From: Octopus vulgaris
Lineage: Eukaryota
Direction of reading: 5' to 3'
Length of the DNA stretch: 64,000 bases
NCBI GenBank assembly: GCA_951406725.2
Contig: OX597816.1
Span: forward strand, 171,802,001-171,866,000
The notes under the pieces were generated by a model that searched no databases, had not been told where the DNA came from, and saw only the letters and a list, made by a program, of their open reading frames with translations. Both the position numbers and the translations under genes were made by a program. Shown in pieces: positions 4,581-62,666 of the stretch; the first letter of the stretch is position 1; each line of letters begins with the position of its first letter.

Positions 4581-4762
4581 GATTTTTTTTTCCTCTGTCT
4601 TCCCTTCTCGGGATCTTTCCTTCTCCTATGTTTCCGACGAAGAGCTCCGTTCGAAACGTTAAACCCTCCTTCTTCCCTTCTTTCCTGAGCGTCCAATAAT
4701 ATTTTATTTGTTCCACGTCCTTGCGTTGTTGTATTTTTTTGTTTTCTTGTTTGGATTAACTT
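4581..4762 (+). mobile_element. Short HHR-bearing non-coding element (PLE pLTR/retrozyme-like) in a (CA)/(TA) tract
   Basis: Near-identical inverted copy at 45117-45308 and diverged copy at ~16475-16660. Each abuts (TA)n at the same end. Absent from the paralogous empty site at 4877-5018. Confidence 0.8.
4630..4664 (+). ncRNA. Minimal type-I hammerhead ribozyme motif (U4C variant)
   Basis: gttt CCGACGA a gagc-tcc-gttc GAAA cg TT aaac: stem I gttt/aaac, stem II hairpin, palindromic acgt stem III, GUU site. Confidence 0.6.
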
Positions 4763-5449
4763 TATATATATATATATATATATATATATATATATATATA
4801 TATATATATATATATACATACATCAATATATAAATGTCCTGAATGGAATTTGGGGTGAGTTATCTCGCCTGTCCATGTAGATTTGGTAGATGGAATCTTA
4901 CAGAAGTCTGTCACACACATATATATATATATATATATATATATATACACATACATCAATATATCGATGTCCATCACTCCTGAATGGGATTTGGGGTGAG
5001 TTATCTCGCCTGTCCATGACTCAGATATTTTAACACCGGCAATTTGAGAGACACACTAACTGTATTCGTTAAGTATATGAGTTCAATAATTTTTATTACA
5101 CTACCGCTGCTTCTCTTTCATGTTTCCATATATTCTCATGTATGCATTGCCAGGGCATACTAGCAAATAGTTTTCACACTATATGCACAGAGGTCGTGGA
5201 CTGGCGATATGATTCATCGCTGATCCAGTTCGGATACGCGATGTTGATAAGCCACAAAAATGGTGAAACATCAGTGTCTTTTGCTCCTGAAAGGGATCTG
5301 GGGTGGATTATCTCACCTGTCCATGACGTTCAGGTGTTTTAACATTCGGCACTTTGAGAGAGTTTTCTCCACCGCGCTAATCGCAGCCTATGTTAGTGCG
5401 TTAAATATGTTGTTCGTAATGTTTGTTACATTGGCACTGCTTCTATTTC

Positions 5450-5614
5450 CTATCTATCTATCTATCTATCTATCTATCTATCTATCTATCTATCTATCTA
5501 TCTATCTATATATATATATCTATCTATCTATCTATCTATCTATCTATCTATCTATCTATCTATCTATCTATCTATCTATATATATATATATATATATATA
5601 TATATATATATATA
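5450..5614. repeat. (TCTA)n/(TA)n microsatellite
   Basis: Read directly from the sequence. Confidence 0.95.
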
Positions 5615-5840
5615 CTTTATTTAAAGCAGCAAAAATTCAACAAAATCTGTTACTCTGAGTTTCTCGTTGCCGTTCATCAGACAGTTTCTAACAAAAACTG
5701 TCTGATGAACGGCAACGAGAAACTCAGAGTAACAGATTTTGTTGAATTTTTTGCTGCTTTAAATAAAGCATATTACTCTACCACTGGTACTTGAGTACTC
5801 TTTTTTTCCACCTTGTTTCACATTTATGTGTTTACTCCAG
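5615..5840 (+). mobile_element. Fold-back element A: ~73-bp inverted arms, 7-nt loop, ~70-bp one-sided tail, within (TA)n
   Basis: 5615-5687 is the reverse complement of 5695-5768 (one indel). (TA)n lies on both sides. Each arm carries an HHR. Confidence 0.85.
5698..5735 (+). ncRNA. Minimal type-I hammerhead ribozyme motif (mirror copy on - strand at ~5647-5684)
   Basis: ctgt CTGATGA a-cg-GCAA-cg-a GAAA ctcagag TA acag: stem I ctgt/acag, GNRA-capped stem II, near-palindromic stem III, GUA site. Confidence 0.7.
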
Positions 5841-6489
5841 TATATATATATATATATATATATATATATATATATATATATATATATGTGTATATATATA
5901 TATATATATATATATATATTTATCGGATCATTAGTAATATATTTAAAAGATAAGGTGTTTCTCTGTATGTCCTGTTAAGCATGTCCAGTGATACACATTA
6001 ACCTGTTATAGCAGTTTCCAGACCGGTGTACATATTTATGCGCATCCGCGAAAACAAAAATGATCGTCGACGCTATTTGAAATTTTTACTTCGCGGTTCA
6101 GTCTTACGCTATTCGTGCAATTTGATTTTCGTTTGTGATATAACACATCTAAATATATTTATTACTTAGCATGTGCTAAAACTCCTCTAAACTTTTTTAT
6201 TTGTGGTTTTAAAATACGGACTGAATCTACCATTCGTTTCTCTTTATAATTTCCAACTAATTTTTTTAAATATTTCAAAATCAAAATCGCATAAATATGT
6301 GTGCCAAAAACAGTAGTTAAAAGTTACGGAAACAAGATTTTTGGGAGATCTCTTATTATGACAGACGCTGTAATTGTTTTTGCTTCAGCACACGATCTCA
6401 GATCAAGTCACTTGCTATGCAAGTACATCTCCGTAATTTAATTTTCATTTATGCCAGAATTTTCGTTGCTCCACCGGTATCACAGACGA

Positions 6490-7960
6490 ACTTTATTCAG
6501 GACAGACACCAGCTGACAGACCAGATTTAACTGACAGAGTATTTAATATGAAGCTTAGGGATCTCTTACATGATATTTTGGAGAAGAATGTTTTGGGAGC
6601 GGTTTCAGGGTACACGTGGACTATAGAGTTCCAAAAGCGTGGACTACCCCATTCTCATATGCTGTTCATATTTTTAAAAAATCCAGGACATTATGATAAA
6701 TTTATTTATGCAGAACTTTCAAATCCACAAACACAACAAATTCTGTTTCAACATGTCACCAAAAGCATGCTACATGGTCCATGTGGAAGGGATAAACCCA
6801 ATGCAATATGTATGGTTGATGGGAAATGTAAAAACATTTCCCTAGAGACTTTCAGGAAATATATTATACAGTTATAATGGCCGTCCACTTTACCGACGTC
6901 GAAATAATGGTTTTACATTTACAAAGTTTAATGTTGAATTAGATAGTCGTTCAGTAGTACCATGTTCCCCCTTCTTTTTAGTCAAATACGGAGGTCATTG
7001 TAATGTATATCTGTAAAATTAGTTAACGATATTAGCAAATACATTCATAAAGGTCATGATCGGGTGACAGTCAATATTAGGGGACAAACCAATGCAGAAC
7101 AAACACACAAATATGAAATTGAAAAATATATTAATGGCCGCGATGTGTCCTGATCAGAGGCAGTCTGGAGGATTTTAGGGTCCAAATTACACGGTCCATA
7201 TCCTGCAGTCCAACAGCTTACAGTTCATTTATCCCAACATCAATACATTTACTTTAATGACGATTATAATATTGAACGTGTTATCCACACACATGATAGG
7301 TCCACTCTCACTGAAAAGGATGTGAGTTGACCGGGAATCGCCATCTGACTCATTTGCATGTACATTACACTACACTGATTTCCTTGAACTTTACACATGG
7401 AATAATAGTGAGAAAATGTGGCATCTCAGAAAAAATGATACACAATAGGCGCAGGAGTGGCTGTGTGGTAAGTAGCTTCCTAACCAACCACATGGTTCGG
7501 GGTTCAGTCCCACTGCGTGGCATCTTGGGCAAGTGTCTTCTGCTATAGCCCCGAGTCGACCAATGCCTTGTGAGTGGATTTGGTAGACGGAAACTGAAAG
7601 AAGCCTGTCGTATATATATATATATATATATATATATATATGTGTGTGTGTGTGTGTGTGTGTGTGTGTATGTGTTTGTGTGTCTGTGTTTGTCCCTCTA
7701 GCTTTGCTTGACAACCGATGCTGGTGTGTTTACGTTCCCGTAACTTAGCGGTTCGGCAAAAGAGACCGATAGAATAAGTACTGGGCTTACAAAGAATAAG
7801 CCCTGGGGTTGATTTGCTCGACTAAAGGCGGTGCTCCAGCATGGCCGCAGTCAAATGACTGAAACAAGTAAAAGAGTAAAAGAATCAATTGGGCGTATCT
7901 ACTTTGTTTCGCTAAATGAACAAAAAATATACCCTTAGATGTTTTATGTATGCGTTTAGA
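6490..7960 (+). pseudogene. Helitron RepHel (Rep/HUH domain) remnant, frameshifted, interrupted by a SINE at 7446-7883
   Basis: DRPDLTDRVF, IEFQKRGLPHSHML (HUH), MLHGPCG, PLYRRR, KYIHKGHDR (Y2), EAVWRI and LTVHL. The reading resumes after the SINE as SIGRIYFV. Confidence 0.93.
7446..7883 (+). mobile_element. SINE family 1 (tRNA head, CORE-like box, internal (TA)(TG) tract, (AAAAGAGT)n tail), full length
   Basis: taggcgcaggagtggctgtgtggtaag...gggttcagtccc...ccagcatggccgcagtcaaatgactgaaac. More than 15 copies in the window. Confidence 0.92.
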
Positions 7961-8114
7961 CGCACATATAAATATTATACCTAGTCATCGAATTATCGTG
8001 AAATGGCTGATTTTTCTACAAGTACTGGTACTCCTAAGATAATCGCCAAGAATAATCAGCGTAGCGCACACACTCACATGTGTGCATATACATAATACAT
8101 ATATATATATATAT

Positions 8115-60890: not shown

Positions 60891-61032
60891 TAAGCAGACG
60901 TGCTTCAAGAGGACACAGTTTGGATTTTTCCCTACCTAGATTATGTGTGTGTGTGTGTGTGGAGGTGCAGTGGCCCAGTAGACGGCGACGAGCTGGTAGA
61001 ATCGTTAGGCGACCGGACGAAATGCTTATTGT

Positions 61033-61410
61033 GGAGGCGTTATGGCCCAGTGGTTAGGGCAGCGGACTCGCGGTCATAGGATCGCGGTTTCGGTTCCTAC
61101 ACCGGGCGTTGTAGATGTTTATTGAGCGAAAACACTTAAAGCTTCACGAGGCTCCGACAGGTCATCGGGTGGTGAACCCTGCTGTACTCTTTCACCACAA
61201 CTTTCTCTTACTCTTTCTTGCTCTTTCTGTTGTACCTGTATTTCAAAGAGCCAGCCTTGTCACACTCTGTCACGCTGAATCGCCCCGAGAACTACGTTAA
61301 CGGCACACGTGTCTGAGGAGTGCTCAGCCACTTCCACGTTAATTTCACGAGCAGGTTGTTCCGTTCATTGGATCCACTGGAACCCGTGTCGTCGTAACCG
61401 ACGGAGTGCC
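61033..61410 (+). mobile_element. SINE family 2, diverged (preceded by short family 2 and family 3 head pieces at 60961-61030)
   Basis: Matches 9149-9537. Confidence 0.88.
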
Positions 61411-62068
61411 CTATATATATTTCTATCCAGAGGTATAAAGAACTCAATACACAAATGTAGAATAGGTTATGAATTTTATTCTAAGCTGGAGTTAAGTAGA
61501 TTGGGACTGTTAATTACACGTTTTGTCAGATTTGAGGCAATTAATTTAATAAATGATAGGACTTCATGTCTATAAACTCTATCTTGTAATTCATTGTCCG
61601 ACAACAAATAGTTTTGTTAACGGGTTTGTTTAACAGTTTTTGCAGCTTGTATAAGTAAAAAGTTGTCTCGTTTATATAAATGATTGCTTGAAAATCATTA
61701 AAATTTGATAGTCCTGATGTATGGAGTTTGTAAGCTTAAAACTGTATGTGCTTGTGTGCATGTGCGCGTGCTCGTGAGAGAGAGGGAGTGTGTGCGAGAG
61801 GAGAAAGAGAGAGACAGAGGGAAAGAAGAGAGAGACACAGCGTACAGGTTTCAAATTTGTTGTGAGGTATTCGACCTCACAACCTCACGATCGTAAGCTC
61901 GACGCTCTAACCACTGAGCCATGCGCCTTCATATATATATACATATATATATATATATATATATATATATATATATATATATATATATATATATATATAT
62001 ATATATATATATATATATATATATATATATATATATATATATATATATATATATATATATATATATAT

Positions 62069-62382
62069 GAAGGCGCATGGCTCAGTGGTTAGAGCGTCGA
62101 GCTTACGATCGTGAGGTGTGGCTCGAATCCCGACCGGGATGCGTGCTTGTGTTCTTGAGCAAAACACTTTATTTCACATTGCTCCAGTTCACTCAGCTGT
62201 ATGATTGCGACGTCATGCCATGTATCGACCTTTGTCTTTCCCTTGGATAACACTGGTGGCGTGGAGAGGGGAGGCCGGTAGCATGGGCGACTACTGGTCT
62301 TCCATATAAACAACCTTGCCCAGACTTGTGCCTCATATCTCTAGGTGCAAACCCATGGTCATATGACCGAGGGTCTTACCTT
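62069..62382 (+). mobile_element. SINE family 4
   Basis: tggctcagtggttagagc A box, gctcgaatccc B box, and gtgttcttgagcaaaacactttatttcacattgctccag core. Confidence 0.85.
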
Positions 62383-62566
62383 TATATATATATATATATA
62401 TATATATATATATATATATATATATACACGTATGTATGTATATAAATTCACACATATATATACCCATACATATAAATATATATGTATATATGTATACACG
62501 CGCGCGCACGCGCACGCGCACACACACATGGAAGACGGAAGATAGAAGGATACGAGAATATTTATT

Positions 62567-62666
62567 GATCACTACAATCGTTTCGACACATCTAGCATCG
62601 ATCCCTCACGGGTGGGATACTTAACAACTGATTCAGGAGCATCCGACGTGTCTCTTCATCCCGATG
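62567..62666 (-). ncRNA. Degenerate hammerhead with extended stem II
   Basis: ..gATGAAGA gacacgtc...gatgtgtc GAAA cgattg TA gtgat. C3 is altered and stem I is imperfect. Confidence 0.45.

What the first reader, a model, noticed from the sequence alone, without database searches (positions are those of the whole stretch)
4581..62666. Dense hammerhead-ribozyme system linking PLE remnants and (TA)n-nested non-coding elements
Seen: about a dozen CUGANGA...GAAA...UH motifs, some intact and some decayed, at 4630, 5698 (plus mirror), 8264-8327, 14075, 16560, 33443, 45226, 46717 (plus mirror), 48894, 49018, 56816 and 62567. Most have paired stems I/II and a tiny, often palindromic stem III (acgt, caattg, cgcgcg, ctcagag). 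All three GIY-YIG remnants in the window have one downstream in sense orientation. Established: PLEs carry minimal type-I HHRs with short palindromic stem III that are thought to cleave as dimers, and non-coding retrozymes exist. Inference: many unrelated PLE families and short non-autonomous derivatives colonise microsatellites here, at roughly one HHR per 5 kb, forming a large and probably unannotated ribozyme retroelement complement.
Basis: partly seen in the sequence, partly recalled or inferred. Interest (0 to 1): 0.9.

Follow-up and report, generated by a model that had tools for sequence, protein, structure and literature searches.

The report
Hammerhead tails of Penelope-like jumping genes
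The self-cutting-RNA motifs scattered through this repeat-rich animal DNA are real, but most are the cut-off tail ends of a known kind of jumping gene that lands in TA repeats (two are likely protein-free hitch-hikers of the same genes); what stands out is their estimated number, about 150,000 in the genome, and large families with altered catalytic cores whose cutting is untested.

Summary
Observation confirmed: 11 of 12 listed sites (13 motif copies, 11 insertions, 10 families) are type-I hammerhead (HHR) motifs; 49018 is not. They are independent insertions, not one system. Eight families are 3' ends of 5'-truncated Penelope-like elements (PLEs): six Hydra-clade (5698, 14075, 46717, 48894, 56816, 62567) and two Neptune-clade (4630/45226, 16560). 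The 'non-coding (TA)n-nested' ones run upstream into RT/GIY-YIG ORFs elsewhere in the genome; 16560 has ~99%-identical 6.1-6.2-kb pLTR-ORF-pLTR copies. Two are retrozyme-type: a young 493-nt tandem unit (8264-8327) and an old 343-nt terminally redundant unit with covarying stems (33443). An 800-kb sample gives one scanner-detectable HHR per ~18 kb (49 vs 5.1 shuffled; ~150,000 genome-wide, 90,000-230,000); the window is not a hot spot (P=0.2). HHRs in PLE ends, Hydra's (TA)n targeting (including an Octopus family) and animal retrozymes are published, and this scan reported the same picture on other DNA of this genome (e1-8666049). Left of note: the load, family-fixed core variants (U4C, A6U, A-A at the stem II base) and the 343-nt unit. 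Cleavage and expression untested.

The parts
4585..4762 (+). Family A: 3' end of a Neptune-clade PLE; HHR 4630-4664, core CCGACGA (U4C), predicted cut after 4660; (TA)n follows
5686..5840 (+). Family B: 3' end of a Hydra-clade PLE; HHR 5698-5735, 2-bp stem II with A-A at its base, predicted cut after 5731
5610..5687 (-). Family B inverted arm with second HHR copy (core at 5680)
8101..8328 (-). Family K: arm of a young 493-nt tandem retrozyme-type unit; HHR 8327-8259, core CCGAAGA, 5' arm of stem I missing in this copy
8324..8547 (+). Family K second (inverted) arm, no HHR, ends at a different point of the unit; (TA)n on both sides
13029..13475 (+). Hydra-type linker and GIY-YIG remnant (family D); a LINE-like piece at 13483-13629 interrupts the UTR
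13790..14130 (+). Family D 3' UTR with decayed HHR 14075-14129
16470..16688 (-). Family A': 3' end of a young Neptune PLE; HHR 16594-16560; family core CCGACGA, this copy C3A
33304..33538 (-). Family E: arm of a 343-nt terminally redundant retrozyme-type unit; canonical-looking HHR 33489-33434, predicted cut after 33442
33528..34162 (+). Family E inverted arm, split by a ~400-bp unrelated repeat (33615-34010) and lacking the HHR by deletion
45118..45312 (-). Family A copy; intact HHR 45260-45226
46163..46537 (-). Family C: Hydra-clade PLE 3' end; HHR 46280-46197 with long stem II
46558..46842 (+). Family C inverted arm; HHR 46720-46804
48890..50480 (-). Family F: Hydra-type PLE remnant (EN pieces 50480-50076 and 49429-49081) with decayed HHR 48953-48894; 49018 is ordinary UTR, not an HHR
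54810..56994 (+). Family H: Hydra-type RT and GIY-YIG remnant with HHR 56816-56945 (about 100-nt stem II domain, palindromic stem III)
62531..62648 (-). Family J: Hydra-type PLE 3' end; 3' half of the HHR (GAAA at 62584, stem I arm 62572-62568), 5' half replaced in this copy

Best explanation
These are independent retrotransposon scars: eight families are the 3' ends of Hydra- and Neptune-clade Penelope-like elements that carry a type-I hammerhead, and two are short protein-free hammerhead units (retrozyme type) likely copied by the same enzymes. Shown: each motif belongs to a dispersed family, lies 56-237 nt from a microsatellite at its 3' side in 12 of 13 copies, and for the eight PLE families longer copies or the window itself link it to a PLE ORF. 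Inferred from known PLE biology: the GIY-YIG endonuclease nicks (TA)n-rich DNA, the RT copies the RNA from near its 3' end and usually stops early or primes from both strands, leaving 60-400-nt tails and inverted 'mirror' arms; because the HHR sits near that end, nearly every insertion deposits one. The HHR was kept by selection in the master elements, where it would cut tandem transcripts as a dimer through the palindromic stem III, probably with help from the PLE protein. The solo copies in this window are predicted to be mostly inert and decay neutrally.
For: ORF links: A reaches Neptune RT/EN through a ~2-kb CA-rich UTR; A' has 6 of 6 fetched pairs as pLTR-ORF-pLTR of 6.1-6.2 kb, 97-99% identical, with DKG, YIDD, CX4CX2C and CCHH-type motifs; B and C reach Hydra RT/EN ORFs; F 13 of 30 and J 6 of 30 loci have a PLE protein hit upstream in sense; 16 of 29 other H-type EN loci have the H ribozyme region downstream in sense, 1 only antisense/upstream. 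Structure kept across families: own stem I arms pair at 3.8 of 4 positions versus 1.6 for cross-family pairs (1 of 88 reach 4). Family E: 23 cells with two-sided changes versus 11.8 shuffled (0 of 500), e.g. A-U 16 / G-C 10 at the stem I closing pair. K: 493-bp tandem arrays of 100%-identical units; E: 343-nt period, 7 of 30 loci terminally redundant, 0 of 30 with a PLE ORF upstream in sense. TA-type repeat within 250 nt downstream of 29 of 49 sampled HHRs versus 29% of random positions. Literature: PMC4209133 (most solo motifs 'probably related to truncated PLEs'), PMC8557442 (Hydra: HHR, (TA)n, inverted 5' copies), PMC11167929 (both strands cut and extended; HHR protein-assisted, not needed for insertion in vitro).
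Against: No cleavage or RNA data here. For D only 1 of 30 loci (the window itself) has an EN upstream in sense. Family A copies stop sharply at about 207 nt (all 9 sampled and 15 incidental copies <=217 nt), which could mean a separate short master. In family E the pair-count measures do not beat shuffles (3 pairs vs 4.2; 457 of 500), and related sequences can inflate the cell-based ones. Single-copy folds give the HHR-region a significant z-score in only 2 of 9 real motifs tested. The stem I cross-pairing test used arms that I read from the families, so own pairing is partly by construction. My scanner alone found a downstream HHR at score >=9 in only 4 of 30 H-type loci.
Confidence: 0.88

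Rival explanations
1. The short tails (families A, A', B) are mostly dedicated non-autonomous mini-elements with their own ~200-nt masters.
For: Family A: 24 of 24 unselected copies are <=217 nt and the 30 best cluster at 200-215 nt; only 76 exact matches to a 21-mer just beyond that point against about 30,000 estimated copies (9 in 800 kb).
Against: A and A' both break at an ATGTG that matches the (TA)n/(TG)n target, which a microhomology truncation hot spot explains; longer copies form a continuous ladder up to the ORF; no tandem or terminal redundancy in 30 A loci; short A' copies are 96-98% identical to the full-length element.
Confidence: 0.15
2. The dispersed hammerheads are an exapted host system that cuts or circularises host transcripts.
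For: High load (about 55 per Mb) makes some insertions in transcripts likely; 8 of 13 copies here keep the family fold.
Against: 5 of 13 are broken by ordinary decay; minimal HHRs were inactive as monomers in vitro (PMC4209133); mirror arms would pair with and block the sense copy; CpG-type decay runs through the core in old families.
Confidence: 0.05
3. The motifs are chance matches in AT-rich repeat DNA.
For: Low-score hits are common in shuffles; 49018 is such a chance match.
Against: 6 vs 0.35 in the window and 50 vs 5.1 in 800 kb at score >=10; family-wide conservation and covariation.
Confidence: 0.01
4. Family E (33443) is only the pLTR of an autonomous PLE that my sample missed, not a retrozyme.
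For: No locus with two HHRs among 30; the family is old (73-86% identity), so parents may be too decayed to see; no RNA evidence.
Against: The sequence upstream of the unit is its own 3' end (60-148 nt redundancy at a 343-nt period), not an ORF; 0 of 30 loci with a PLE ORF upstream in sense versus 13 of 30 for the similarly old family F; the unit folds well as a circle (z = -6.3, 100 shuffles, on a majority consensus).
Confidence: 0.2

Closest known systems
Minimal type-I HHRs of metazoan PLEs (Cervera and de la Pena 2014, PMC4209133; read parts 1-2 of 4 and passages of supplement file 2)
   Same: Type I, short stem I, extra nucleotide between 9 and 10.1, palindromic stem III, many heterogeneous families, mostly solo copies from truncated PLEs.
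   Different: Several families here fix U4C, A6U or a mismatch at 10.1-11.1; I saw none of these cores in the passages shown (consensus there is CUGANGAH). Stem II domains up to about 100 nt. Far higher load than the 2,000-9,000 given there for single genomes.
Hydra-clade PLEs, incl. Hydra-1_Obim (Craig et al. 2021, PMC8557442; passages, section 11, supplement passages)
   Same: C-terminal GIY-YIG, DKT, CxCX5C linker, CxxC..E..N..CxH, no CCHH, HHR near the 3' end, (TA)n targeting, inverted 5' copies; an Octopus family with an HHR is already listed. The B motif shares stem I and stem III with a coral Hydra sequence in that supplement.
   Different: At least six distinct Hydra families in one 64-kb window; family B has shrunk stem II to 2 bp with an A-A base.
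Neptune-clade PLEs (features as given in PMC8557442; clade assignment by motifs, no tree)
   Same: DKG, CX2-5CxxC linker, CCHH-type EN, pLTR-ORF-pLTR, microsatellite targeting.
   Different: About 2-kb CA-rich UTR; U4C core fixed in the young family.
Animal non-LTR retrozymes (PMC7229834 parts 2-3 of 6; bioRxiv 10.64898/2026.07.22.740005 parts 1-2 of 5)
   Same: Non-coding units with a type-I HHR, tandem or more-than-unit copies, self-paired as circles, thought to derive from or use PLEs.
   Different: K at 493 nt is above the 170-400 nt first described (within the 51-972 nt of the preprint); E occurs as 1.0-1.4 units, no dimer seen; circular RNA not shown here.

Membership tests
Type-I hammerhead ribozyme | CUGANGA and GAAA boxes with A15.1-U16.1 and H17 | tested here: met
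   Met in B, C, D, E, F, H, J family copies; A, A', K carry U4C. Not met at 49018 and broken in 5 window copies.
Type-I hammerhead ribozyme | Three stems, open at stem I, supported by covariation | tested here: met
   Cross-family stem I test; family E pair counts (mixed by measure); 30 of 49 sampled hits with exact palindromic stem III.
Type-I hammerhead ribozyme | Site-specific self-cleavage | not testable with these tools
   No bench assay; no RNA run listed.
Hydra-clade PLE (B, C, D, F, H, J) | RT followed by C-terminal GIY-YIG with CxCX5C linker, CxxC/CxH around E and N, no CCHH | tested here: met
   Read in ORFs of L188-L192 and window remnants; for J only by protein hits upstream in 6 of 30 loci.
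Hydra-clade PLE (B, C, D, F, H, J) | DKG motif changed to DKT | tested here: met
   Seen in the B-family RT piece of L191 and 43 of 79 homologues (DKT or DKS); not visible for the other families.
Hydra-clade PLE (B, C, D, F, H, J) | Placement in the Hydra clade by RT phylogeny | not tested
   No tree built with reference clades.
Neptune-clade PLE (A, A') | pLTR-ORF-pLTR with DKG, RT, CX2-5CxxC linker and CCHH-type GIY-YIG | tested here: met
   A' 6 of 6 fetched loci; A shares the ORF at 80-82% DNA identity but no complete A element was seen. All six A' ORFs end early or shift frame when read from the first ATG.
Neptune-clade PLE (A, A') | Placement by RT phylogeny | not tested
   Assignment by motifs only.
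Non-LTR retrozyme (K) | Non-coding tandem units each with a type-I HHR | tested here: met
   Six units at 493-bp spacing in L297.
Non-LTR retrozyme (E) | Non-coding tandem units each with a type-I HHR | tested here: inconclusive
   343-nt period with 60-148 nt redundancy in 7 of 30 loci, no two-HHR locus.
Non-LTR retrozyme (K, E) | Expressed as circular RNA | not testable with these tools
Circular folding z = -5.1 (K) and -6.3 (E).

The most novel reading that the evidence does not exclude
This genome holds the densest hammerhead load yet counted in an animal (about 55 detectable per Mb, versus about 4.5 per Mb from published axolotl figures), and some of its most successful, recently active Penelope-like families have fixed core changes expected to cripple cutting (U4C in a Neptune family with ~99%-identical full-length copies and in the young 493-nt retrozyme, A6U in a family of about 35,000 copies that still varies only the free positions N7 and H17, an A-A base and 2-bp stem II in Hydra family B). 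These are deliberately weakened, protein-dependent ribozymes, and the families form a natural series for testing what the HHR does in PLE and retrozyme spread.
Probability: 0.3. Interest if true: 0.6.

Novelty: new member of a known kind. Interest (0 to 1): 0.3.

Why it matters
The association itself is known, so the window adds members, not a new system. It matters modestly because (1) the estimated 10^5 hammerheads are invisible to Rfam and are not mentioned in the main text of a 2026 curated Octopus repeat annotation (PMC13282606: 0 hits for ribozyme, hammerhead, retrozyme), (2) the role of the PLE hammerhead is open (in vitro it was protein-assisted and dispensable for insertion, PMC11167929), and young families with fixed weak cores next to canonical ones make that testable, and (3) it gives two cephalopod-type retrozyme candidates, one of which (343 nt) had no look-alike in the scan's notes.

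Tried and rejected
Rfam scan of the window: only microsatellite-driven miRNA noise among the 150 rows shown of 308; 0 hits at gathering in 10 loci. Pfam: no family for the PLE proteins, so clades rest on motifs. A first 30-nt pattern for the upstream of family A matched once; a 21-nt one gave 76. I first read L182 as pLTR-ORF-pLTR; it is a truncated copy sitting in the (TA)n tail of a separate short copy. Extra scanner hits 38905+, 31828+ and 56554+: no relatives among the loci held for the first two, CUGAUGA not conserved for the third; not counted. 49018 rejected. RNA: no RNA holder listed for the E stretch; two unlabelled contig sets laid on it gave nothing on ends or circles. Monomer MFE folding does not recover the HHR fold for most motifs, as expected for minimal HHRs, so it was not used as support. 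Lunse et al. 2017 (RNA Biol 14:1499) is not held; it may already include U4C/A6U variants or cephalopod sequences. Paper searches for hammerhead with octopus, cephalopod, U4C, retrozyme+mollusc found no genome-wide octopus count; a giant squid paper lists 235 Rfam hammerhead hits. Supplement file 1 of PMC4209133 and the bioRxiv supplements were not seen.

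
Full report
Setting. The window is G000:C3:171802001-171866000 in a 2.8-Gb genome, very rich in microsatellites. An octopus-like host is my inference from genome size, repeat content and the likeness of the PLE proteins to Hydra-1_Obim.

Observation. A plain motif list and the sequence at each site show the motifs. 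My scanner demands CUGANGA with at most one mismatch, GAAA, paired stems I and II and a palindromic stem III. It gives 6 sites at score >=10 against 0.35 in 60 local dinucleotide shuffles, none reaching 6. It misses variants, so each site was then checked against its genomic family (the best 20-30 loci each, so these samples lean to close copies). Eleven of the 12 listed sites are family members: 13 motif copies, 11 insertions, 10 families. Eight copies keep the family fold, five are damaged. 49018 has no CUGANGA in its family and is a chance look-alike.

What the families are. A (4630, 45226; 1,657 first-look candidates): fixed 3' end before (TA)n, staggered 5' ends; longer copies run through a CA-rich UTR into a Neptune-type RT and GIY-YIG ORF. 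A' (16560): a sister family with identical young copies; six pairs about 6.1-6.2 kb apart were fetched and all are pLTR-ORF-pLTR elements, 97-99% identical, with DKG, YIDD, a CX4CX2C linker and a CCHH-type endonuclease; each of the six ORFs ends early or shifts frame as assembled. B (5698) and C (46717) continue into Hydra-type ORFs (DKT, CxCX5C, CxxC..E..N..CxH) after 1.0-1.2-kb UTRs. D, F and H have the endonuclease in the window itself; 16 of 29 other H-type endonuclease loci carry the H ribozyme region downstream in sense. J has a Hydra protein hit upstream in sense in 6 of 30 loci. K (8264-8327) is a piece of a young 493-bp unit found as tandem arrays of identical copies. E (33443) is an old family (73-86%) with a 343-nt period: 7 of 30 loci begin with the unit's own 3' end, none has a PLE ORF upstream in sense and none has two HHRs. 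B, C, E and K in the window are two-armed inverted insertions.

Structure. Stem I arms differ in sequence between families yet pair within each (3.8 of 4 versus 1.6 across families; arms were read from the families, so this is partly by construction). In E, the closing pair of stem I is A-U in 16 and G-C in 10 of 30 copies and two stem II pairs also switch; cell-based measures beat all 500 shuffles, pair-count measures do not. In 800 kb of evenly spaced samples, 30 of 49 hits have an exact palindromic stem III.

Density. Eighty 10-kb samples from six contigs gave 50 hits (49 distinct) at score >=10 versus 5.1 in 12 shuffles: one per 18 kb, bootstrap 12-31 kb, or about 150,000 (90,000-230,000) genome-wide if the six contigs are typical. 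By the same scanner the window (6) is ordinary (P=0.2). As the scanner passed only 6 of 13 true copies here, the total with decayed and variant copies may be about twice that (inference). Published counts seen: 126,247 in the 28-Gb axolotl, >6,000 in a coral, ~5,000 in a mussel, 2,000-9,000 minimal motifs in fluke, coelacanth and frog; descriptors differ, so the comparison is rough.

How it works. Shown: the anatomy above; 12 of 13 cores lie 56-237 nt from a downstream microsatellite; TA-type repeats are enriched on both sides of sampled HHRs (29 and 26 of 49 versus 29% at random). Inferred from PMC11167929 (abstract and main text read) and PMC8557442: the endonuclease cuts AT-rich DNA on both strands and the RT starts at fixed points near the RNA 3' end, so early stops leave short tails and two-strand priming leaves inverted arms. 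The HHR rides along because it lies near that end. It is maintained in master elements, where tandem transcripts allow dimers through the palindromic stem III (PMC4209133), possibly with protein help; in the anole PLE it needed the protein and was dispensable for insertion in vitro. Solo copies lack a partner in cis, and a mirror arm is antisense and would block rather than complete the ribozyme (inference). E and K would be copied in trans by PLE enzymes, as proposed in PMC7229834 and the 2026 preprint; their scars here match those of the PLE families.

Core variants. A and A' carry U4C (25 of 26 and 20 of 22 readable A copies; 19 of 19 other A' loci), as do K and 11 of 49 sampled hits. Perreault et al. 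(PMC3088659, passages and section 8) cite U4C as a rare viroid variant with much lower activity in vitro, and list A6C and U10.1-U11.1; K has that U-U. A family outside the window has CUGUNGA (A6U) in 10 of the 800-kb hits, with N7 and H17 varying, and a Neptune ORF upstream in one locus. B has a 2-bp stem II with an A-A base in 35 of 42 matches. Whether these are in Lunse et al. 2017 I could not see.

Comparison. It works like, and by sequence tests belongs to, the PLE minimal HHRs of Hydra and Neptune elements; Craig et al. list Hydra-1_Obim with an HHR and (TA)n preference. K meets the tandem-unit test for retrozymes, E only partly. Cleavage, expression, circles and clade trees were not tested. 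Earlier notes of this scan on other DNA of this genome reached the same view (e1-8666049, seen after my analysis) and described a ~490-495-nt retrozyme that is probably K.

Verdict. Real, well above chance, and a dense local sample of a known kind. Interest 0.3: ordinary in kind, notable in number and in fixed core variants.

Noticed in passing
L335, L348, L354, L370, L373, L389, L393 and others (not in the window): A large HHR family with core CUGUNGA (A6U), 10 hits in 800 kb (about 35,000 copies by extrapolation), N7 and H17 varying; Neptune ORF upstream in L348.
   Followed up: partly
L415-L420: Young Neptune PLE (family A'), 6.1-6.2 kb, 97-99% identical copies, with a ~2-kb CA-rich microsatellite-like UTR and U4C hammerhead.
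   Followed up: partly
L393:4200-6400: Tandem and inverted array at about 360-bp spacing with a CCGAUGA hammerhead, another retrozyme-type family.
   Followed up: no
L191 (family B): Internally deleted Hydra copy: RT N-terminal half joined directly to the 3' UTR, with an inverted arm holding the endonuclease.
   Followed up: no
L182, L188: PLE copies inserted into the (TA)n tails of earlier PLE tails (A in A, C in a B-like end), so families nest in each other.
   Followed up: partly
   Followed up: partly
window 48170-48775 -: C-terminal restriction-like endonuclease remnant and 3' UTR of a repeated non-LTR element ending in (AAT)n (HERO-like by recall), next to family F.
   Followed up: partly
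window 16691-16973 and 12771-13048: Two 95%-identical copies of a ~280-bp element with a long perfect hairpin (MITE-like), in opposite orientation.
   Followed up: no
window 6437-6877 +: Helitron N-terminal remnant (PF14214, E 9e-20).
   Followed up: no
window 11267-12624 +: LINE reverse-transcriptase remnant (PF00078, E 9e-12).
   Followed up: no
window 33615-34010, 26209-26627, 34642-35138, 59829-60241: A ~420-bp repeat with internal ~101-bp subunits, one copy inserted inside the family E element.
   Followed up: no
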